Source of the DNA: an uncultured Actinomycetes bacterium
Lineage (GTDB): Bacteria > Actinomycetota > UBA4738 > HRBIN12
NCBI GenBank assembly: GCA_964640965.1
Contig: CAZXJB010000001.1
Span: 6,150 to 70,149, forward strand
Direction of reading: 5' to 3'
Length of the DNA stretch: 64,000 bases
Shown: positions 1,800 to 64,000 of the stretch, piece by piece
How positions within the stretch are numbered: position 1 is the first letter of the stretch
Layout of the letters: each line of letters opens with the position of its first letter
Notes under the pieces: model-generated
Database searches by the model: none
Told to the model about the DNA's origin: nothing
What the model saw: the letters and a program-made list of their open reading frames with translations, nothing else
Made by a program: the position numbers and the translations under genes

Positions 1800-3122
1800 C
1801 TACTCGAGGTAGTCGCGGAGCTTCTGGCTGCGGCTGGGGTGCCGGAGCTTGGAGAGCGTCTTGCTCTCGATCTGCCGGATCCGCTCCCGGGTCACGCCGA
1901 ACTCGCGGCCGACCTCCTCCAGCGTGCGGGGATGCCCGTCGAGCAGCCCGAACCGGAGCTGGATGACCTTCTTCTCGCGCTCGGAGAGCGTGTGGAGCAC
2001 GGCCTCGAGCTGCTCCTGCAGCAGGATGAAGCTGGCCGCGTCGACGGGGACCACGGCGTCGGAGTCCTCGATGAAGTCGCCGAGGTGCGAGTCCTCCTCC
2101 TCCCCGATCGGCGTCTCGAGGCTGACCGGCTCCTGGCTCACCTTGAGGATCTCGCGGACCTTCTCGGCCGGGATGCCCATCTGCTTGCCGATCTCCTCCG
2201 CCGTGGGCTCGCGACCGAGGTCCTGCAGCAGCTGGCGCTGGATGCGCACGAGCTTGTTGATGGTCTCGACCATGTGCACGGGGATCCGGATGGTGCGCGC
2301 CTGGTCGGCGATCGCGCGCGTGATGGCCTGGCGGATCCACCAGGTGGCGTACGTGGAGAACTTGTAGCCCTTGGAGTAGTCGAACTTCTCGACGGCGCGG
2401 ATCAGGCCGAGGTTGCCCTCCTGGATGAGGTCCAGGAACAGCATCCCGCGCCCCACGTAGCGCTTGGCGATCGAGACCACCAGGCGGAGGTTGGCCTCGA
2501 TGAGCTTGCGCTTGGCGAGCTGGCCGTCCCGCTCCACCCGCCGGAGGAAGTCGTCCAGCTCCTCCCGCGTCTTCGGCTTCCAGGACTTGGTGATGCGGTC
2601 CCGGCCGATCCCCTCCACCTTGCCGAACCGCTCCTGCTGGTGCTCGCGGATCGCGACGACCGCCTCGAGCACGCGCCGCAGCTGCTTGCCGTCGACCTTG
2701 CCGTCGCCCTCCACGGCCTCACGCAGGGCCGTCGCGAACTCGCCCGCCTCGATCCGCCGCGCGAGATCGACCTCCTGGGCCGCGTTCAGGAGCGGCACCT
2801 TGCCGATCTCCTTCAGGTACATGCGGACGGGGTCGTTCGTCGGCGCCTTCAGGAGATCGACCTCGAGCGCGCGCTGCGCCGCGACGTCGGTCTCGTCGCC
2901 GGGGAGCTCGATCACCTCGATGCCCTCGCCGCGCAGGTGCTCCTCCACCTGCGAGAGGAACTCCTCGAGCTGCTCGGGCGAGAACTCCTCGACGGGCACG
3001 GCCTCGAGGAGGTCGTCGGAGGTCACGAACCCGCGCTCACGGCCGCGAGCGGTGATGGCCTCCTTCGCTTCCTCGAGACCCAGATCGCGGGCCGCTTCCG
3101 TCAAACGAGGCTCCTCGCGCAT
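1800..3122 (-). CDS. rpoD: RNA polymerase principal sigma factor (sigma-70, RpoD/SigA)
   Basis: Regions 1.2-4 are conserved ('[29 protein letters not shown]', '[19 protein letters not shown]'). The start is taken at ATG 3122 ('MREEPRL'). The upstream 75 codons of the track ORF look like spurious low-complexity sequence. Confidence 0.9.
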
Positions 3123-3172
3123 CGGTCCGAACGCTCGGGAAGTGTACGAGATGGCACCGACGGCGACCCCCG

Positions 3173-4954
3173 TCACACGGCGGGGACGCCCCGCCCCTCC
3201 CGGAGGCGGCGCAGGCGTCCGTCCGTCTCGATCAGCTCGCGGAACAGCTCGTCGTAGCCGGCGTCGGTGGTGGGGTTCATGCTCTGGAGCCGTCGGCGGA
3301 GCTCCTCGCTGCGACGTCGGAGCCGGAACTCCTCGAGGCGGCTCCACACCTCCTCGGCGTAGCCCGGGACGGCCTCCCCGTCGAGCGGCTCGAGCGCGAG
3401 GGCCGAGAGCGACCGCACCACGCGCTCGTCGCCTTCGGCGACCGCCCGGCGCAGGTCCCCGCCCACCGAGCGCAGGGCCGCGAACAGGGTCCGGGCCGTC
3501 CGGGTCTGGAAGTGCTCCTCGCTCAGACGCTCCCCGATCGCGCGATAGACGCCCTCGTCCCGCGCGAGCAGGCGCAGCATCTCCCGCTCGACCCGCTCCT
3601 GGGCGGTGGCGCGCGTGATCGCCTTCTCGGGCGCCACCGGTCGGCCCTCGCGCCGGCGCTGGAGCGCGAGCACGACCGAGCCCTCGGTCACCCCGACGAG
3701 CTCGGCGAGCAGGTGGGCGTACTCCGAGAGGCGGACGGGGTCGGTCAACCCCTCGAGCAGCGGCAGGGCCGCCGCCACCGCCGCGGCCTGGCCCTCGACC
3801 GTGGTCAGGTCGTGCCGTCCCACCACCCGGCGGAGCATGTACTCGACGAGGGGCTCCGCGGCAGCCGCCCGCTCCCGGAATGCCCGGCCGCCGTGGGTCC
3901 GGACGAAGTCGGCGGGGTCCTCGCCCTCGGGCAGGATCAGCACCACCGGCCGCAGCGGGTAGGTCTCCAGGAACGCGAAGGCCCGCTCGGCGGCGCGGGC
4001 GCCCGCCTCGTCGGAGTCGAAGGCGAGCACCATCCGCTGCGCGAACCGGGAGGCCGCGCGGAAGTGGCCCTCGCCCAGGGCGGTGCCGCAGGTCGCGACC
4101 ACGTTGTCAACCCCGGCCATGGCGAGCGCGATCACGTCGGTGTAGCCCTCGACCACCACGATCTCGCCGGTGCGGGCCACGGCCGCCTTCGCGCGGTGCA
4201 GGTTGTAGAGCACCTCCCCCTTGCGGTAGATGGGCGTCTCCGGCGAGTTCAGGTACTTCGGCCCGTCATCGCGCGCCCCCGGCAGCGCCCGAGCGCCGAA
4301 CCCCACGGCCCTGCCGGCGAGGTCGTGCACGGGGAACGTGACGCGGCCGCGGAAGCGGTCCCGCACGTTCCCATCGGCGTCGCGGAGCGCCAGCCCGGCC
4401 TCGAGGAGGATCTCGGTCGACAGCGAGCGCGCGAGCCGCCGGAGCAGGAAGTCCGGGTAGCCGGGCGCGTAGCCGATGCCGAACGCCTCCCACGCCTCGC
4501 GCTCGAACCCCCGCGAGCGCAGGTACGCGCGGGCCTCCTCGGCCTCGCGCCCCTCGAGGAGCATGCGGTGGTACAGGGCGGCGGCCTGCTCGTTCGCGCG
4601 GTGGAGCGCCTGGCGGCGGGAGGCGGCGCGGCGCTCGGCCGGGGAATCGCCCTCGTACCGGAGCGTGAGGCCCGCCTCCTTGGCCAGGCGCTCGACCGCC
4701 TCGGTGAACTCCAGGTGCTCGATCTGGCGCAGGAACGTGATGGCGTCGCCGCCGGCCCCGCAGCCGAAGCAGTAGAAGACCCCCTTGCTCGGCGAGACCG
4801 AGAACGAGGGGGTCTTCTCGGCGTGGAACGGGCACAGGCCGCTGTAGGCATCGTGCCCGGTCTTCTTGAGGGCGAGGTAGCCCGAGACGAGCTTCACGAT
4901 GTCGGTCCGCTCCCGGACCGCCTCGAGGTCCTCCTGCCTGATCCTCCCGGCCAC
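3173..4954 (-). CDS. dnaG: DNA primase DnaG
   Basis: It has the zinc-ribbon and TOPRIM motifs '[34 protein letters not shown]' and 'EGYTDVIAL'. A GTG start at 4954 has a purine-rich RBS. The first ~306 codons of track ORF 3173..5872 are wrong-frame. Confidence 0.9.
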
Positions 4955-4989
4955 GCTCGTCCTCTCCCGGAGCGGCCGCGGACGCGGCC

Positions 4990-6000
4990 CTACAGCATCC
5001 AGCCCTGGGGAAGGAAGAGCTGCTCGTACACGCGGAGGGCGTACCGATCCGTCATGCCGGCGATGTAGTCGGCGATGCGGGTCGGCAGGTCGCCCGGAGC
5101 CCGATGGTACTCCTCCGGGACGGCCTCGGGATGCTCGAGGTAGTAGGAGAACAGGGTCCGGACGAGCGCGATGGCCTTCTCCTGCTCCGATCGCGCCTCG
5201 GGCCGCAGGTAGACGCGCTCGAAGAGGAACCCCCGCAGGACGTCGAGCGCGTGGGCCACCGGCTCGGAGAGCCGGACCTCGGGGCCCTCGGCGCTCGAGC
5301 GCACGAGGTCCGTGACCAGGGTGTCGATGCGCCGCCCGTGGGTCGGACCGAGCACCTCGAGCACCTCCGCCGGCAGGTCCTCGGGCCCAAGGACCCCGGC
5401 TCGGACGGCGTCGTCGACGTCGTGGTTCACGTACGCGATCCGGTCCGCGAGGCGCACCACGGCGGCCTCGGGGGTCGCCGGCGGCGGCGTCGACCAGGGG
5501 TGGTGCAGGATCCCGTCCCGGACCTCCCAGGTCAGGTTGAGCCCCCGCCCCTCGTTCTCCAGGTGGTCCACGACCCGGAGGCTCTGCTCGTTGTGCCGGA
5601 ACGGGCGCCCGAGGAACGGCGAGAGCGCCTCCTCGCCGAGGTGCCCGAACGGCGTGTGGCCGAGGTCGTGCCCGAGCGCGATCGCCTCGGTGAGGTCCTC
5701 GTTCAGGCGCAGCGCCCGGGCGGCGGTGCGCGCGATCTGGGCCACCTCGAGCGTGTGCGTGAGCCGCACGCGGTAGTGGTCGCCCTCGGGGGCGAGGAAC
5801 ACCTGCGTCTTGTGCTTGAGCCGTCGGAACGCCTTGGAGTGGACGATGCGGTCGCGGTCGCGCTGGAAGCACGTCCGCAGGGGGTCGAGCGGCTCCTCGC
5901 GCTCGCGGCCCTTGCTCGCCTCCGAACGCGTGGCGTGCGGCGCGAGCGTCTCGCGCTCGATGCGCTCGGTCACCTCCCGTGGGCTCGCCATGCCCCGCAT
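4990..6000 (-). CDS. dgt: dGTP triphosphohydrolase-like HD-domain protein
   Basis: An HD motif ('HTLEVAQIAR', 'GHDLGHTPFGH') is present. It lies in the dgt-dnaG-rpoD arrangement typical of Actinobacteria. Confidence 0.85.
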   Translation of the reverse strand: MRGMASPREVTERIERETLAPHATRSEASKGREREEPLDPLRTCFQRDRDRIVHSKAFRRLKHKTQVFLAPEGDHYRVRLTHTLEVAQIARTAARALRLNEDLTEAIALGHDLGHTPFGHLGEEALSPFLGRPFRHNEQSLRVVDHLENEGRGLNLTWEVRDGILHHPWSTPPPATPEAAVVRLADRIAYVNHDVDDAVRAGVLGPEDLPAEVLEVLGPTHGRRIDTLVTDLVRSSAEGPEVRLSEPVAHALDVLRGFLFERVYLRPEARSEQEKAIALVRTLFSYYLEHPEAVPEEYHRAPGDLPTRIADYIAGMTDRYALRVYEQLFLPQGWML

Positions 6001-56959: not shown

Positions 56960-56986
56960 TTGGCAGTCTACCCTTGGGAGTGCTAG
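56960..56986. promoter_or_regulatory. CIRCE-like inverted repeat (HrcA operator)
   Basis: The hrcA sense strand reads CTAGCACTC-N9-GACTGCCAA, against consensus TTAGCACTC-N9-GAGTGCTAA. It lies immediately upstream of the hrcA start. Confidence 0.65.
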
Positions 56987-57021: not shown

Positions 57022-58128
57022 GTGAGCGAGTCGGACGCGTACCGGGCGCACTGGGAGGACGAGCAGGACGGCGCGGCGCTGTACCGAGCGCTCGCCGAGG
57101 GGGCCGAGGGCGAGCAGCGGGAGATCTTCCTCGCGCTGGCCGCGGCCGAGGAGCGGCACGCCCGTCACTGGGCGGGCAAGCTCGTCGAGCTCGGCCTGCC
57201 CGAGCCCCGACCCGAGGAGCACCGGCCGAGCCCGCGGACCCGCCTGCTCATCTGGCTCACCCGCCGCTTCGGACCGCGCGCCGTGCTGCCGATCGTCGAG
57301 CGTGCCGAGATCAGCGACGCAGCCCATTACGACGACGTCCCCGCGGCCAAGCCCCAGATGGCCGTGGACGAGCGCATCCACGCGCGCGTGCTCGCGGGCC
57401 TCTCCCCCGCCTCCGTCCGCGGCGGGATCGTCCGCGGCGAGCGGTGGCACCGGGGCGACGCCTCGGGCGCCCTCCGGGCGGCGATCTTCGGCGCGAACGA
57501 CGGCCTCGTCTCGAACCTCGCGCTCGTGATGGGCGTGGCCGGCGGCCAGGCCTCGGGCCGCGTGATCCTGCTCGCGGGGGTGGCGGGGCTGCTCGCGGGC
57601 GCCTTCTCGATGGGTGCCGGGGAGTACGTCTCGGTCCGGTCCCAGCGCGAGCTGTTCGAGCGTGAGATCGCCCTCGAGGCCGAGGAGATCCGGATCATGC
57701 CGGAGGAGGAGCAGAACGAGCTCGCGCTCATCTACCGGGCCAAGGGCATCCCGAAGGAGGAGGCCGAGGCGCTCGCCAGGGCCATCTTCTCGGACCCCGC
57801 GCACGCCCTGGACACGAAGGCCCGGGAGGAGCTCGGCCTGAACCCGGAGGAGCTCGGCTCGCCCTGGGGCGTGGCGGTCTCGAGCTTCGTCTCCTTCGCG
57901 CTCGGCGCGATCGTGCCGGTGATCCCCTACGCGATCGGCTCGGGCGTCGCGGCGTTCTGGGCGGCGGTGCTCGCCGCGGCCGTGGCCCTGTTCGCGATCG
58001 GGGCGGGGGTCGGCCTGCTCACGGGCCGCTCGTTCGTGCGGGGCGGCCTCCGGCAGCTGTTCATCGGGGCGCTCGCGGCGACCGCCACCTTCGGCATCGG
58101 CCGGCTCATCGGGGTCTCCGTCAGCTGA
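57022..58128 (+). CDS. VIT1/CCC1-family iron/manganese transporter with an N-terminal ferritin-like domain
   Basis: A rubrerythrin/ferritin-like N-domain is followed by the VIT membrane domain ('GANDGLVSN...'). Confidence 0.8.
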   Translation: MSESDAYRAHWEDEQDGAALYRALAEGAEGEQREIFLALAAAEERHARHWAGKLVELGLPEPRPEEHRPSPRTRLLIWLTRRFGPRAVLPIVERAEISDAAHYDDVPAAKPQMAVDERIHARVLAGLSPASVRGGIVRGERWHRGDASGALRAAIFGANDGLVSNLALVMGVAGGQASGRVILLAGVAGLLAGAFSMGAGEYVSVRSQRELFEREIALEAEEIRIMPEEEQNELALIYRAKGIPKEEAEALARAIFSDPAHALDTKAREELGLNPEELGSPWGVAVSSFVSFALGAIVPVIPYAIGSGVAAFWAAVLAAAVALFAIGAGVGLLTGRSFVRGGLRQLFIGALAATATFGIGRLIGVSVS

Positions 58129-58228
58129 CCTGCCTCGGCGGGCAACCGATCGCCGGCCCCGCGCGTCAACAGGGGCGGAAAGGGGGGCAGCCGCGCTGAT
58201 CGACGAGTGGCAGATCCGGGAGTTCCTC

Positions 58229-58708
58229 GTGACCGGCTACCCACGCCTCGTGGCCGCCGTGGCCCTGGTGAGCGGCAGCCGCCCGGCCGCCGAGGACGCC
58301 GTCCAGGAGGCGCTCCTGCGCGCCTGGGAGCGCTCGGAGCGCGGGGAGGCCATCGAGTCGCTGCCCGCCTGGGTCACGACGGTCTCGCTGAACCTCGCCC
58401 GGAGCGGACTGCGTCGGGTGCTCGCCGAGCGCCGGGCCCGGGCCCGGCTCGACCGAGCCGACCCGGCGGACCTCGGGGATGAGGATCGGATCGACCTCGA
58501 ACGGGCGCTCGCGGCACTGCCCCGCCGTCAGCGGGAGGCCGTGGTCCTCCGCTACTACCTGGGCATGGACACGCGGGAGGTCGCCGAGGCGCTGCGGATC
58601 CACGAGGGGACGGTGAAGAGCACGCTCTTCCGCGCTCGAGCCGCCATCGCGCGCGCGCTGGGTGTCCCCGAGACCGAGGAGGCGAACGACGTTGACCAGG
58701 CTCGATGA
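58229..58708 (+). CDS. ECF-type RNA polymerase sigma factor (short; the N-terminus may be incomplete)
   Basis: Sigma region 2 ('AEDAVQEALLRAWER') and region 4 ('EVAEALRIHEGTVKSTLFRAR') are present. The only in-frame canonical start is GTG 58229. Confidence 0.65.
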   Translation: MTGYPRLVAAVALVSGSRPAAEDAVQEALLRAWERSERGEAIESLPAWVTTVSLNLARSGLRRVLAERRARARLDRADPADLGDEDRIDLERALAALPRRQREAVVLRYYLGMDTREVAEALRIHEGTVKSTLFRARAAIARALGVPETEEANDVDQAR

Positions 58709-60707
58709 GCGGCTGCGACGCGAGCTGGAGCGGGCCGCCCGGCCCGCCGACCCCACCGGCGTCTACGAGGAGCTGATCCGCCGGCGCGAGCGGCGCCGCA
58801 TCGTCCGCCGCGTGGAGGCGGGGTTCGTCGCCTTCGCCGTGAGCGTGGGGAGCATCGTGGGGATCTGGGTCCTCGTCCGCGGGTCCGAGGGCGGCACGGT
58901 GGCCACCCCCGGCCCCGGGGACGAGATCGCGGCCCTGCTGTACCGCTCGCCTTTCGGGCAGCCGCCGACGGACGGAGGGGCGTGGCAGCCCACATCCCTC
59001 GAGCTCGCGCTGATCTCGGCCCGGGACGGCTCGATCCGGACCCTCCTGTCGTCACGAGGTGAGGTCTCCGGGGATCGCATCCTCTCCACCCCCAGCTGGT
59101 CGCCGGACGGGAGCACCCTCGCGTTCTGGCGCGTCCCCGATCGAGCGCGCGCGGATCCGCCGGGCCTGTACACGATCGATGCCGAGGGCGGTCCGCCGAA
59201 GCTCCTGCTCGAGACCGAGCTGTCGATCCAGGACCTCGCCTGGTCCCCGGACGGCACGCGCGTCGCGTTCGTCGGCCTGGAGCCCACCGACGGGACGGAG
59301 CTCGACTGGCCGACCGCGATCTACACGGTGGCGGCCGACGGTTCCGGCCCGGTTGCTCGGCTCCCGATCGAGGGCCCGATCCGGGACCTCGCCTGGTCCC
59401 CCGACGGCTCGCTCCTCGCGATCACGCGGCTCGCCCCCGGGGGTGAGGGCGGCCTCCAGGCCCGACTGATCACCGAGGACATCTACCTCGTGGACCCCGT
59501 GGACGGGAGCATCACGCGCCTCACCGACGACGGGCGGTCCTCCGACCCCGCCTGGTCGCCCGACGGGCGCCAGATCGCCTTCACGAGCAGCGGCGAGACC
59601 CCGCTCCCGGGGCTCTTCGTGATGAACGCGGACGGGAGCGGGCGGCGCCGGCTGACCTTCCCGGACGGCGCGGACGCCAGCCCGACCTGGTCGCCCGACG
59701 GGCGGTGGATCGCCGTCGCGCGGTCCACGCTCAGCCCGAGCGGCGCGAGCGGGCCCATCGGGGGCTCCTCCTGCCAGGTGGTGCTGGTCGCCGCCGACGG
59801 CTCCGGGGAGCGCGTCCTCGTGGACGGCCCCATCGACGGCGCCTGCGCGACCGAGCTCGCCTGGCGTCCCGCCCCGGTCGCCACCTCACCGACGGACCAG
59901 GTCTCCGAGGCACCGAGCCCCCTCCCGACGACCTCGCCCTCCACCGCGAGCCCGGCCCCGGCCAGCCCCTCCCCGGTGCCAGATCTCGCCGCGGGGTGCG
60001 GCCTCTCCGCGATCCAGGGCGACTACGACGGGGACGGCGTCCTCGACGTCGCGGTCGTCGCGACCCTCTCCGCCGACGGCAGCTGCCCCGAGCCCGGCAA
60101 GGGCGAGACGTACCTCGGCATCGGCTTCGGCCAGACCGAGCAGGACGTGGGCGCCGGGACCTTCGGCGCGGACCTCGCCTTCGGCCCGCTCGAGTGCGGC
60201 GCGGACGTCGGCTGTCGGGTGTTCGCGGCCCCCGACCTCGACGGGGACGGGACGGCGGAGATCGCGGTCGTCCAGGACGCGGGGGCCAGCGCCGAGATCC
60301 TCGGCCTGTACCGGATGGAGATCTGCGGGCCGGCCCAGGACTGCCTCACCTCCTCCTGGATCTCCGCCATCGAGGTCGCCGAGCCCGGTGACCCCACCCT
60401 CCCGCTGGAGCCCGGGCCCGCGCGGATCCTGTGGGGCGGCTCGGTCGTCGAGTCCTACGGCGCGTACTGCGGCCCGATGGAGGGCGACCCGCCGACCGAT
60501 GAGACGGGCTTCGTCGTGTGGCGTGCGTCCGCCGATGCCGCCGGCTCGGGAGCGACGGTGCACGAGGCGCTGCTCCAGCTCCGGGGGGCGCGCCTGCGGG
60601 TGGTCGCGACCCACGACTACGAGGTCCCGTCGACGGCGGCCGGCCTTCCCCCCGGTGGCGGCTCCGACCTGTGCGGGGCGCCGGTGGCGGGCCCGGGCGG
60701 GGACTGA
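58662..60707 (+). CDS. membrane-anchored anti-sigma-like protein with a TolB/PD40 beta-propeller and a C-terminal FG-GAP/VCBS-like domain
   Basis: A single TM 'GFVAFAVSVGSIVGIWVLV' is followed by repeated 'WSPDG' PD40 motifs and 'DGDGVLDVAVV' / 'DLDGDGTAEIAVV' FG-GAP-like repeats. The start overlaps the sigma gene (GTG 58662 or TTG 58692). Confidence 0.65.
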   Translation: MSPRPRRRTTLTRLDERLRRELERAARPADPTGVYEELIRRRERRRIVRRVEAGFVAFAVSVGSIVGIWVLVRGSEGGTVATPGPGDEIAALLYRSPFGQPPTDGGAWQPTSLELALISARDGSIRTLLSSRGEVSGDRILSTPSWSPDGSTLAFWRVPDRARADPPGLYTIDAEGGPPKLLLETELSIQDLAWSPDGTRVAFVGLEPTDGTELDWPTAIYTVAADGSGPVARLPIEGPIRDLAWSPDGSLLAITRLAPGGEGGLQARLITEDIYLVDPVDGSITRLTDDGRSSDPAWSPDGRQIAFTSSGETPLPGLFVMNADGSGRRRLTFPDGADASPTWSPDGRWIAVARSTLSPSGASGPIGGSSCQVVLVAADGSGERVLVDGPIDGACATELAWRPAPVATSPTDQVSEAPSPLPTTSPSTASPAPASPSPVPDLAAGCGLSAIQGDYDGDGVLDVAVVATLSADGSCPEPGKGETYLGIGFGQTEQDVGAGTFGADLAFGPLECGADVGCRVFAAPDLDGDGTAEIAVVQDAGASAEILGLYRMEICGPAQDCLTSSWISAIEVAEPGDPTLPLEPGPARILWGGSVVESYGAYCGPMEGDPPTDETGFVVWRASADAAGSGATVHEALLQLRGARLRVVATHDYEVPSTAAGLPPGGGSDLCGAPVAGPGGD

Positions 60708-60709
60708 GC

Positions 60710-60759
60710 CTCAGCCGGCGAGGGCGAGGACGAGCTCAGCCGGCGAGGGCGAGGACGAG
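60710..60759. repeat. 25-bp perfect tandem duplication (ctcagccggcgagggcgaggacgag x2) spanning the hemW stop codon
   Basis: The repeat is read directly. Confidence 0.9.
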
Positions 60760-61832
60760 CTCGTTCAGCACAAGCATGCCGCGCTCGGTCGGCACAAGCG
60801 CCCCGTCCGCCCGCCGCAGGAGGCCGGCCTCGAGCAGCGGGCAGGCGGCGCTCGGCTCCGCCCAGGAGGCCGGGACGCCCTCGAGGATGCGCAGGCGCAG
60901 GAACACCTCCTCGAGGCGCGCCTCCTCGGGCCCGAGGCGCTCCTCGCCGCCGATCGGGAGCTCGCCCGCTTCCACCCGTCGCACGTACTCCTGGGGCGGT
61001 CGGACGTTCCACCAGCGGCGCTCGCCGCGGTAGGAGTGCGCGCCAGCGCCGAGCCCGAGGTAGGGCTCGCGCCGCCAGTACCCGAGGTTGTGCCGGCACT
61101 CGAACCCCGGCCTGGCCCAGTTCGAGACCTCGTAGTGCCGGTACCCGGCCGCGCCGAGGAGCTCGCAGGCGAGGGCGAACATCTCGGCCTGCAGATCCGG
61201 GTCCGGAGCGGGCCGCAGCCCGAGCGCGACCTGCCGTCCGAGCGGGGTCCCCGGCTCGACCGTGAGGGCGTAGGCGCTCACGTGCTCGGGCCCGAGGGCG
61301 ATCGCCTCGCGGAGCGTCCGCTCCCAGGAGGCGAGCGTCTCGCCCTCCGCCCCGTAGATCAGGTCCAGGTTCACGTCCTCGAAGCCCGCCTGGCGAGCGG
61401 CGGCCATCGCCCGACGGACCGAGTCCGGACCATGCACCCGTTCGAGCGACGCGAGCACCGCGGGATCGAAGGACTGCGCGCCCATCGACAGGCGCGTGAC
61501 CCCGGCCTCGCGCAGGGCCGCGAGCTTCGCGGCGTCCACCGTGTCCGGGTTCGCCTCGACCGAGACCTCGGCCCCCGGTGCGATCCGGAAGCGCTCCCGG
61601 AGGGCCGCGAGGACCGCCGTCAGGTCCCCCGCGGGGAGCGTCGTCGGGGTCCCGCCGCCCACGAACACGCTGCGGACCTCCTCCTCCGCCCAGGCCGGCG
61701 CGGCGAGCTCGGCCTCGCGGATCAAGGCTCGGACGTACGGCGCGCGCAGGTGCTCCAGCCCCGCGTACGCGTTGAAGTCGCAGTACCCGCAGCGGGTGAG
61801 GCAGAAGGGCACGTGGACGTAGATGCCCGCGC

Positions 61833-61836
<4 letters not shown>
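60736..61836 (-). CDS. hemW: radical SAM heme chaperone HemW (HemN-like)
   Basis: The radical-SAM motif '[10 protein letters not shown]' and the HemN_C domain are present. ATG 61836 overlaps the lepA stop (ATGA). Confidence 0.85.
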
Positions 61837-63653
<1,817 letters not shown>

Positions 63654-63716
63654 CGTACGGGCCGGCGGGCGGGGAGCCGCGGGCGCCCCGTATCGCCCCT
63701 GGTACACTCCACGGCC

Positions 63717-64000
63717 GTGGCGAACATCAGGTCGCAGATCAAGCGCAACCGCCAGGCCGCCAAGGCTCGCCTGCGGAACAAGTCGGTCCGCTCGGCGCTG
63801 AAGACCGCGCGGAAGAAGGTGCGGCTCGCGCTCGGCCAGGGCGACGTCGAGAGCGCCCTCGCGCGGGCTCGCGAGGCCAGCCGCGCCTACGACAAGGCCG
63901 CCTCGAAGGGGGTCCTCCACAAGCGGGCCGCGGCGCGGCACAAGTCCCGGCTCGCCCGCGCGGTGAACCGGGCCCTCGCCACGGGCGCCGGCGAGCGCTA
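63717..64000 (+). CDS. rpsT: 30S ribosomal protein S20, partial (runs past the window end)
   Basis: '[29 protein letters not shown]...' matches S20. A GTG start is present. It is divergent from lepA. Confidence 0.8.

What the first reader, a model, noticed from the sequence alone, without database searches (positions are those of the whole stretch)
58229..60707. ECF sigma with an overlapping membrane anti-sigma-like gene bearing a TolB/PD40 propeller and an FG-GAP domain
The 159-aa ECF sigma has only a GTG start and no upstream canonical start despite an open upstream frame. A single-TM protein follows it, overlapping by 17-47 nt, whose short cytoplasmic N-terminus would be the anti-sigma segment. 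Its large extracytoplasmic part contains multiple 'WSPDG' PD40/TolB blades and two FG-GAP/VCBS-like Ca-binding-type repeats rich in Cys. Such a sensor architecture implies envelope or protein-ligand sensing. Its overall domain combination is unusual.
Basis: partly seen in the sequence, partly recalled or inferred. Interest (0 to 1): 0.5.

Follow-up and report, generated by a model that had tools for sequence, protein, structure and literature searches.

The report
Self-regulated ECF sigma with membrane sensor
This is a real two-gene stress-signalling unit of a familiar kind: an alternative sigma factor that very probably starts at a rare CTG codon, followed by a membrane protein that probably holds it in check, whose outside part combines a TolB-like propeller with an undescribed cysteine-rich domain, and the pair is conserved at one chromosomal site across about forty uncultured soil Actinomycetota.

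Summary
An ECF sigma gene and an overlapping single-pass membrane gene lie at 58196-60707 (+).

Comparison with about 45 related loci sharpens the anatomy:
- The sigma very probably starts at CTG 58196 (170 aa), not GTG 58229.
- The partner starts at TTG 58692, overlapping the sigma by 17 nt.
- An invariant ECF-type promoter, CAACC-N16-CGTC (58143-58167), precedes the sigma, which implies autoregulation.

The partner has five parts: a 41-aa basic two-helix cytoplasmic tail, one TM helix, a six-bladed TolB-like PD40 propeller, a Pro/Thr/Ser linker, and a 230-aa Cys-rich FG-GAP-like beta domain. AF2 models that last domain at pLDDT 92, and no close solved fold exists.

The conserved core of the family is tail + TM + C-terminal domain. 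The propeller is an optional insert.

The tail is about twice as conserved as the ectodomains (65% against 37-44%), and about as conserved as the sigma. It matches no known anti-sigma domain and is not ZAS.

My best reading is an autoregulated ECF sigma with a translationally coupled anti-sigma that has a minimal, CnrY-like two-helix tail. Binding is inferred, not shown.

It is a new variant of a known kind and of moderate interest.

The parts
58143..58147 (+). -35-like element CAACC of the ECF-type promoter in front of the sigma gene
   Evidence: CAAC is invariant and the following C nearly invariant in an alignment of 20 orthologous upstream regions. The exact CAACC-N16-CGTC motif lies about 45-50 nt upstream of the sigma start in about 36 loci, including each copy of tandem duplicates. 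The only other match in the window is a coding coincidence inside rpoD.
58164..58167 (+). -10-like element CGTC of the same promoter, 16 nt after CAACC
   Evidence: CGTC is invariant in 20 loci with a fixed 16-nt spacer. A role as the sigma's own target promoter is inferred from the general autoregulation of ECF sigmas (PMC7826278).
58177..58187 (+). Shine-Dalgarno-like GGAAAGGGGGG, 8 nt before CTG 58196
   Evidence: Read directly from the sequence. Loci that share the CTG start carry GAGGAG or AAGGAG at the same place.
58196..58708 (+). ECF sigma factor gene, 170 aa from CTG 58196. Gene callers used GTG 58229, giving 159 aa.
   Evidence: Pfam Sigma70_r2 and Sigma70_r4_2. TIGR02937 passes its cut-off. 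The TIGR02983 profile aligns from residue 6 of the CTG-extended protein. The 11 extra residues LIDEWQIREFL are conserved in all orthologues. P0280, at 90% identity, starts MVDEWQIREFL at exactly this codon. L011, L019, L022 and L025 have an in-frame stop 3-4 codons upstream of the homologous CTG, which leaves CTG as the start, or the next codon ATC in three of them. The 159-aa version is what is on record.
58676..58682 (+). Shine-Dalgarno GAGGAGG for the downstream gene, embedded in the 3' end of the sigma coding sequence
   Evidence: Conserved in nearly all of 49 sigma/partner pairs, 8-10 nt before the partner's start codon.
58692..60707 (+). Gene for the single-pass membrane partner (671 aa, TTG start), overlapping the sigma by 17 nt. 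Putative anti-sigma and sensor.
   Evidence: The start aligns with position 1 of the family's N-terminal profile. An overlap of 11, 14 or 17 nt is found in 48 of 49 pairs. An identical protein, P0001, is on record.
58692..58814 (+). Cytoplasmic tail, residues 1-41 (MTRLDERLRRELERAARPADPTGVYEELIRRRERRRIVRRV). Two helices joined by an RPADPxG loop. Candidate sigma-binding segment.
   Evidence: AF2 gives helix 2-15, a loop, then a helix from residue 24. R7, P18, D20, P21, G23, R30, R31, R34 and R35 are invariant or nearly so. Mean pairwise identity is 65% against 37-44% for the ectodomains. There is no Pfam or PDB anti-sigma match.
58815..58880 (+). Transmembrane helix, residues about 42-63, with invariant V50 and a small-xxx-small motif G53-S54-x-x-G57
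   Evidence: Alignment A1/A4 and the continuous AF2 helix 24-66.
58923..59864 (+). Six-bladed TolB-like PD40 beta-propeller, residues 78-391, with five WSPDG blades plus a closing WRP strand
   Evidence: Pfam PD40 E = 1e-24 and TIGR02800 E = 4e-26, below the cut-off. AF2 gives about 24 strands, mostly at pLDDT > 90. The best Foldseek PDB matches are TolB, E = 1e-14 over about 325 columns. The module is absent in many orthologous loci.
59877..59981 (+). Disordered Pro/Thr/Ser-rich linker, residues about 396-430
   Evidence: Sequence composition. pLDDT is below 50 for residues 398-425. It is the least conserved region, at 28%.
59997..60695 (+). C-terminal Cys-rich FG-GAP-like beta domain, residues 436-668. 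It is the conserved extracytoplasmic core of the family, with six invariant Cys and the invariant loop PD-x-D-G-D-G-x-x-E at 514-523.

Best explanation
This is an autoregulated ECF sigma / membrane anti-sigma signalling pair.

Proposed mechanism, step by step:
- The sigma (170 aa, started at the weak codon CTG 58196) recognises its own promoter, CAACC-N16-CGTC, and transcribes the two-gene operon.
- The partner is translated from an overlapping, strongly Shine-Dalgarno-led start, so it is made at least stoichiometrically.
- The partner inserts in the membrane with its N-terminus inside.
- Its 41-residue basic two-helix tail binds and sequesters the sigma. The likely mode is that of the minimal class II anti-sigma CnrY, where one helix lies on sigma-4 and the other on sigma-2.
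- Outside the cell, the Cys-rich, probably Ca2+-binding and disulfide-bonded FG-GAP-like domain senses an envelope or extracellular ligand, helped here by a TolB-like peptide/protein-binding propeller.
- The signal releases the sigma, either by regulated proteolysis of the partner or by a conformational change passed through the conserved TM helix.

Shown here: the gene anatomy, the promoter conservation, the coupling, the domain structure and the conservation pattern.

Inferred: sigma binding by the tail, autoregulation, the nature of the signal and the release mechanism.
For: - The sigma is an ECF sigma.
- The gene order sigma then +1 single-pass membrane protein, with an 11/14/17-nt overlap and an internal Shine-Dalgarno sequence, is conserved in 48 of 49 pairs from about 45 loci. 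This includes every tandem duplicate.
- An invariant ECF-type promoter precedes each sigma copy. It occurs nowhere else in 476 kb of loci in a conserved position.
- The cytoplasmic tail is the most conserved part of the partner: 65% mean pairwise identity, and 71% for the window against distant members. The propeller and C-terminal domain stand at 36-44%. The tail therefore evolves about as slowly as the sigma, which is 56-82% identical across loci.
- AF2 predicts the tail as helix, Pro/Gly loop, helix. This matches the two-helix architecture described for class II anti-sigma CnrY (PMC7406223).
- In the ECF classification, a +1 TM protein with a conserved cytoplasmic region is the standard criterion for a putative anti-sigma. 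Most such proteins match no Pfam anti-sigma domain (PMC7826278).
- The ectodomain modules vary while tail, TM helix and C-terminal domain stay fixed: none, PD40 or SecDF-P1-head in the middle, and one or two C-terminal domains. This is typical of modular sensors.
Against: - Sigma-tail binding was not tested.
- The tail resembles no known anti-sigma domain in Pfam or the PDB.
- At 41 aa it is shorter than class I domains, which average 101 +/- 33 aa (PMC7406223).
- Part of its conservation is a run of Arg next to the membrane, which the positive-inside rule alone would favour.
- No sigma-partner fusion proteins were found among the ten intermediate-length family members scanned.
- No site-2 protease gene lies in the window by a simple motif search.
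- Neither the ligand nor any regulon member beyond the operon is known.
Confidence: 0.65

Rival explanations
1. The downstream protein is not a regulator of the sigma. It is an envelope protein that is merely co-expressed, the main or only target of the sigma, and its N-terminus is just a signal anchor.
For: No known anti-sigma domain is detected. The tail is short and Arg-rich, as any N-in signal anchor would be. No other copy of the promoter was found in the window or the loci, so the operon itself may be the principal regulon.
Against: A plain signal anchor needs only positive charge. Here a specific pattern is kept at 65% identity while the functional ectodomains drift to 36-44%: LDERLR..LERA.RPADP.GVYE.LIRRRERRR, including an acidic/amphipathic first helix and a Pro-Asp-Pro-x-Gly loop. 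An ECF sigma with no regulator at all would be constitutively self-amplifying from its own promoter.
Confidence: 0.2
2. The partner is a positive or dual regulator rather than a simple inhibitor. Its tail would be needed for sigma activity or stability, as with the pro-sigma activity known for FecR-type N-termini.
For: The same conservation and coupling evidence as for the main explanation. That evidence shows a functional link but not its sign.
Against: No similarity to FecR-type domains. Inhibition is by far the commonest role for +1 membrane partners of ECF sigmas (PMC7826278, PMC8103513).
Confidence: 0.08
3. The sigma really starts at GTG 58229 (159 aa). The conserved sequence upstream would then be a 5' leader, not coding sequence.
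For: GTG 58229 is the only canonical start. A GGGAG lies 6 nt before it. Gene callers chose it.
Against: The 11 upstream codons are conserved as amino acids (I/L-R-E-F-L) across orthologues whose called genes start with ATG or GTG at or just before that point. The SigE-family profile aligns from residue 6 of the extended protein. Four loci have in-frame stops that leave only CTG (or the adjacent ATC) to translate these residues. The GGGAG is itself part of the conserved R-E-F codons.
Confidence: 0.1

Closest known systems
Class II ECF anti-sigma factors (CnrY of Cupriavidus metallidurans, partner of CnrH)
   Same: A minimal cytoplasmic anti-sigma segment made of two alpha-helices, followed by a single TM helix, encoded next to its ECF sigma. 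In CnrY helix 1 contacts sigma-4 and helix 2 contacts sigma-2 (PMC7406223). The tail here is predicted as two helices of similar size.
   Different: No sequence similarity was detected. CnrY works with a separate periplasmic sensor protein (from my own knowledge), whereas this protein carries its own large ectodomain. Binding is untested here.
Class I membrane anti-sigma factors (RseA, RsiW, RskA, RsdA, RslA)
   Same: A +1 gene co-transcribed with an autoregulated ECF sigma. Single-pass, N-in topology. Sensing is extracytoplasmic, and release is commonly by regulated proteolysis (PMC8103513).
   Different: Class I domains have four helices and average 101 +/- 33 aa (PMC7406223), against two helices and 41 aa here. 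The tail has no HxxxCxxC zinc motif and no Cys or His at all. Neither the Pfam anti-sigma families nor the solved anti-sigma chains are matched.
TolB C-terminal beta-propeller (PD40 repeats)
   Same: A six-bladed PD40 propeller. TolB is the best structural match, at E = 1e-14 over about 325 aligned columns and 19-22% identity. WSPDG blade motifs are present.
   Different: It is not TolB. TIGR02800 scores 92 bits against a cut-off of 343. There is no TolB N-terminal domain and no Tol-Pal context, and the host is an actinobacterium. Here the propeller is a facultative module inside a sensor protein.
FG-GAP / integrin-alpha-type propeller repeats
Actinobacterial SigE-family ECF sigmas (NCBIfam TIGR02983)
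   Same: This is the best-scoring specific sigma profile, at E = 1e-31, aligned almost end to end.
   Different: The score is 109.6 bits against a cut-off of 141.55, so it is not a member by the curated threshold.

Membership tests
ECF (group 4) sigma-70 factors | Only regions sigma-2 and sigma-4 are present, and the family profiles are matched above threshold | tested here: met
   Pfam Sigma70_r2 (35.5 bits against 24) and Sigma70_r4_2 (66.1 against 25.7). TIGR02937 scores 78.1 against 42.9. There is no region 3 or region 1.1. The nearest solved chains are ECF sigmas SigL, SigE, SigH and SigK.
ECF (group 4) sigma-70 factors | Autoregulation from a conserved ECF-type promoter (AAC-containing -35, CGT-containing -10) | tested here: inconclusive
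   An invariant CAACC-N16-CGTC lies upstream of every orthologous sigma copy. Recognition by this sigma was not tested.
SigE-family sigma (TIGR02983) | Score above the curated cut-off of 141.55 bits | tested here: not met
   109.6 bits.
Class I anti-sigma domain, including ZAS | A four-helix N-terminal domain of about 50-130 aa, detectable with anti-sigma profiles. For ZAS, an HxxxCxxC zinc motif. | tested here: not met
   The tail is 41 aa with two predicted helices. It has no Cys or His. None of 24 members matches any Pfam anti-sigma family at E <= 10. No solved anti-sigma chain is matched.
Class II (CnrY-like) anti-sigma domain | A short two-helix cytoplasmic segment before one TM helix, encoded next to the sigma | tested here: met
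   Helix 2-15, a loop, then a helix from residue 24 running into the TM helix. The gene sits at +1 and overlaps the sigma. This is architecture only.
Class II (CnrY-like) anti-sigma domain | Homology to CnrY/NccY, and binding across sigma-2 and sigma-4 | not testable with these tools
   No sequence similarity was found. Binding needs an experiment.
Anti-sigma factor (functional definition) | Binds its sigma and inhibits sigma-dependent transcription | not testable with these tools
   Only indirect evidence is available: translational coupling in 48 of 49 pairs, and a tail conserved at 65% against 37-44% for the ectodomains.
TolB (Tol-Pal system) | The equivalog profile matched above cut-off, an N-terminal TolA-binding domain, and a tol-pal operon | tested here: not met
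   TIGR02800 scores 91.8 against 343. Only the propeller aligns. The neighbours are hrcA/dnaJ, VIT1, hemW and lepA.
PD40 beta-propeller | Repeated PD40 units forming a closed propeller | tested here: met
   PF07676 scores 86 bits against 20.9. Five WSPDG motifs are present. AF2 gives a six-bladed propeller at high confidence.
FG-GAP / integrin-type seven-bladed propeller | Seven FG-GAP blades forming a closed propeller | tested here: not met
   There are only two FG-GAP-like loops, in a 230-aa domain of about 14 strands. TM-score to integrin alpha is about 0.33.

The most novel reading that the evidence does not exclude
The 41-residue tail (LDERLR..LERA.RPADP.GVYE.LIRRRERRR) would be a new, independently evolved class of minimal anti-sigma domain. 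The Cys-rich FG-GAP-like C-terminal domain would be a new extracytoplasmic sensor fold, possibly redox- or Ca2+-dependent, or a binder of cell-wall or protein ligands. Together they would form the principal, vertically inherited envelope-stress switch of a whole uncultured Actinomycetota lineage. The weak CTG start would serve as a built-in device to keep the sigma sub-stoichiometric to its inhibitor.
Probability: 0.3. Interest if true: 0.55.

Novelty: new variant of a known kind. Interest (0 to 1): 0.4.

Why it matters
ECF sigma / anti-sigma pairs are the third major mode of bacterial signal transduction, and most of them have no recognisable anti-sigma domain or known signal.

This pair gives a clean, well-delimited example from uncultured soil Actinomycetota, with four useful properties:
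- A sharply defined candidate minimal anti-sigma peptide of 41 aa.
- A precisely conserved promoter, usable as a reporter or an orthogonal genetic part.
- A confidently modelled but undescribed sensor domain that defines a family of more than 500 sequence clusters.
- Comparative evidence for a conserved CTG initiation codon, which automatic annotation misses. The gene is on record 11 codons too short.

None of this overturns current concepts. It extends the catalogue and corrects the annotation.

Tried and rejected
- A profile search with the 65-aa N-terminal alignment in the 5.8-billion protein set returned only 13 short fragments of the same family. It gave no information on other architectures.
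- Rosetta-stone fusions: family members of about 465-550 aa were suspected to be sigma + partner fusions. Pfam shows most are N-terminally truncated PD40 forms, one (P0274) carries a SecDF-P1-head module and one (P0220) has an unidentified insert, and none has sigma domains.
- The second promoter-motif hit in the window (2391-2415, minus strand) was considered as a regulon member. It lies inside the conserved region 2 of the principal sigma gene and is a coding coincidence.
- A ZAS/RsdA-like fold for the tail was rejected.
- TolB identity was rejected.
- A motif search for a site-2 protease in the window found nothing.
- The literature search found no described anti-sigma with PD40 or FG-GAP domains. 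The ECF classification paper has no held supplements with which to assign an ECF group.
- An exact look-up of P0001's contig gave no record, so the source organism is known only as uncultured Actinomycetota, by analogy with the loci.
- A mirror-tree or co-variation test was considered and dropped. Tandem duplication of the pair as a unit makes co-divergence uninformative.
Full report
**Observation**

The window is about 73% G+C. Around the finding the genes run as follows:
- dnaJ and hrcA on the minus strand
- a VIT1/rubrerythrin gene (57022-58128, +)
- the ECF sigma ORF (GTG 58229-58708, +)
- a 671-681-aa ORF ending at 60707 (+)
- hemW and lepA on the minus strand

The sigma matches Sigma70_r2 and Sigma70_r4_2, and passes the ECF superfamily model TIGR02937. 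Its frame is open back to a TGA at 57920. There is no ATG, GTG or TTG before 58229.

The downstream protein has a 41-aa N-terminal tail and one TM helix. It carries five exact WSPDG motifs and two DxDGDG loops. It has ten extracytoplasmic Cys.

**Related loci**

Full-length relatives of the membrane protein exist at 32-74% identity. Four of them were traced to contigs. In each, the sigma/partner pair sits between hrcA-dnaJ and hemW-lepA.

A scan of one genome per species with the C-terminal domain profile returned 43 loci. Their record titles are almost all uncultured Actinomycetota MAGs. The three titled otherwise are two weak FG-GAP-only matches and one apparently mis-binned contig. A tblastn map shows the same arrangement in essentially all loci long enough to judge. 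Sigma identity is 56-82%, about the same as HrcA. The VIT1 gene is an insertion specific to the window and L001. Several loci carry tandem duplicates of the whole pair.

**Start of the sigma**

Several lines place the start upstream of GTG 58229:
- The SigE-family profile aligns from residue 6 of a protein extended to CTG 58196.
- All orthologues conserve the extra residues (x-I/V-D-E-x-x-I/L-R-E-F-L). Most begin with ATG or GTG at or one codon before the position of the window's CTG.
- P0280, 90% identical, starts MVDEWQIREFL exactly there.
- In L011, L022 and L025 an in-frame TGA lies three codons upstream of a homologous CTG-ATC-GAC-GAG. In L019 a TAA lies four codons upstream of CTG-CTC-GAC-GAG. 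Each case has a GAGGAG or AAGGAG Shine-Dalgarno sequence at the right distance.

The window has GGAAAGGGGGG (58177-58187) 8 nt before CTG 58196. I conclude that the gene is 58196-58708 (170 aa) with a CTG start. ATC 58199 cannot be excluded. Public gene calls hold the 159-aa GTG version.

This does not affect the overlap with the next gene, contrary to the finding's refutation clause.

**Promoter**

An alignment of 20 upstream regions shows invariant CAAC(C) and (G)CGTC separated by 16 nt. In the window these are at 58143-58147 and 58164-58167.

The exact motif occurs upstream of the sigma in about 36 loci, and before each copy in tandem duplicates. In the window it occurs once more, inside the region-2 coding sequence of the principal sigma gene, which is a coincidence.

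The motif has the form of an ECF promoter, and ECF sigmas usually autoregulate (PMC7826278). Autoregulation is therefore inferred, not shown. No sigma-70-type promoter or intrinsic terminator was detected in 57900-61000.

**Coupling**

The partner's family-wide start aligns with TTG 58692. In 48 of 49 pairs its start lies 11, 14 or 17 nt before the sigma's stop. It is preceded by a GAGGAGG embedded in the sigma's last codons, which in the window is at 58676-58682. This is the signature of translational coupling.

**The partner protein**

AF2 with 34 relatives gave mean pLDDT 82. The model reads as follows:

| Residues | Element | Notes |
|---|---|---|
| 2-15 | helix 1 | cytoplasmic tail |
| 16-23 | RPADPTG loop | cytoplasmic tail |
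| 24-66 | helix 2 | contains the TM segment |
| 78-391 | beta-propeller, about 24 strands | best solved matches are TolB, E = 1e-14 |
| 398-425 | Pro/Thr/Ser linker | disordered |
| 436-668 | beta domain | C-terminal domain |

The C-terminal domain:
- Modelled alone with 19 relatives, it reaches pLDDT 91.8 and pTM 0.90.
- Its weak neighbours are pieces of FG-GAP/integrin-type propellers and the FG-GAP-like immunity protein XAC2610.
- Pfam sees only weak FG-GAP repeats.
- Six Cys and the loop P-D-x-D-G-D-G-x-x-E are invariant.
- I infer three disulfides and one Ca2+ site from these features. That is inference.

**Family architecture**

A profile of the C-terminal domain finds 517 cluster representatives at E <= 1e-10 in 1.84 billion proteins. 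The domain is always C-terminal. Protein lengths cluster near 300-330, 500-550 and 580-640 aa.

Mapping N-terminal and C-terminal profiles onto the loci shows three forms:
- tail-TM-Cterm
- tail-TM-PD40-Cterm
- forms with two C-terminal domains

One relative has a SecDF P1-head module in place of the propeller. The invariant core is therefore tail + TM + Cys-rich domain.

**Is it an anti-sigma factor?**

For:
- The gene position, the coupling and the modular sensor architecture.
- The conservation pattern. The cytoplasmic tail has 65% mean pairwise identity, and 71% for the window against distant members. The TM helix has 44%, the propeller 37% and the C-terminal domain 44%. The tail keeps pace with the sigma.
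- Its two-helix layout matches the minimal class II anti-sigma CnrY, whose two helices contact sigma-4 and sigma-2 (PMC7406223).

Against:
- No Pfam anti-sigma family is matched by any of 24 members.
- No solved anti-sigma chain is matched.
- There is no zinc motif.
- No sigma-partner fusions were found among the ten intermediate-length family members scanned.
- Complex modelling was not possible.

The ECF classification paper notes that most putative anti-sigmas match no known Pfam anti-sigma domain (PMC7826278), so this absence is not unusual. I put the anti-sigma reading at about 0.65. A merely co-expressed envelope protein gets about 0.2. A positive regulator gets under 0.1.

**Release mechanism**

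This part is speculative. The TM helix has an invariant Val and a G-S-x-x-G motif. That is compatible with intramembrane cleavage or helix-helix signalling. No site-2 protease lies in the window.

A weak CTG start on the sigma, combined with a strong Shine-Dalgarno sequence on the partner, would favour an excess of inhibitor. This is inference.

**Comparison and novelty**

In kind, this is an ordinary ECF sigma/anti-sigma operon. It differs in four ways:
- a tail unrelated in sequence to known anti-sigma domains
- an undescribed Cys-rich sensor domain with optional PD40 or SecDF-head modules
- a conserved CTG start
- a fixed, vertically inherited chromosomal position in an uncultured lineage

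The literature searches found no described PD40- or FG-GAP-bearing anti-sigma. I rate it a new variant of a known kind, with interest about 0.4.

Noticed in passing
window 56960-56986: A CIRCE-like inverted repeat, TTGGCAGTC-N9-GAGTGCTAG, sits immediately upstream of hrcA (start 56953, minus strand). The GAGAGTGCTAG half-site is also conserved in the hrcA-sigma intergenic region of the related loci, about 20-25 nt upstream of the sigma's -35 element.
   Followed up: partly
window 57022-58128 (+): A VIT1/CCC1 iron-transporter gene with an N-terminal rubrerythrin/ferritin-like domain lies between hrcA and the sigma. It is there only in the window and its closest relative L001. All other loci have hrcA and the sigma directly divergent.
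   Followed up: partly
L010, L015, L019, L023, L042: The whole sigma/partner pair is tandemly duplicated, and each copy has its own CAACC-N16-CGTC promoter. Paralogous copies differ in whether they carry the PD40 propeller.
   Followed up: partly
L043 (CAWBFP010000026.1): The contig is titled as an Alphaproteobacteria MAG, but it carries the actinobacterial partner-hemW-lepA arrangement at 73-79% protein identity to the window. It is probably mis-binned.
   Followed up: no
P0274 (protein): This family member has a SecDF P1-head domain between the TM helix and the Cys-rich C-terminal domain, in place of the PD40 propeller. It is a third variant of the middle module.
   Followed up: partly
window 1800-3347 (-) and 3173-5872 (-): The principal sigma factor gene (regions 1.1-4) and dnaG lie at the left end of the window. 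The only other CAACC-N16-CGTC match in the window (2391-2415, minus strand) encodes [10 protein letters not shown] of sigma region 2 and is a coding coincidence.
   Followed up: yes
L015 ~2009, L031 ~2579, L038 ~3478, L045 ~3583 (minus strand, inside hrcA): A recurrent CAACCTSGGCACGATCGGGATCGTC match to the promoter pattern lies within the hrcA coding sequence of one subclade. It most likely reflects coding conservation and was not examined further.
   Followed up: no
window 60736-61977 (-) and 61833-63941 (-): The mechanical ORFs for hemW (413 aa) and lepA (702 aa) are longer than the called orthologues (about 366 and about 603-635 aa), and they overlap each other. The true starts are probably internal.
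   Followed up: no
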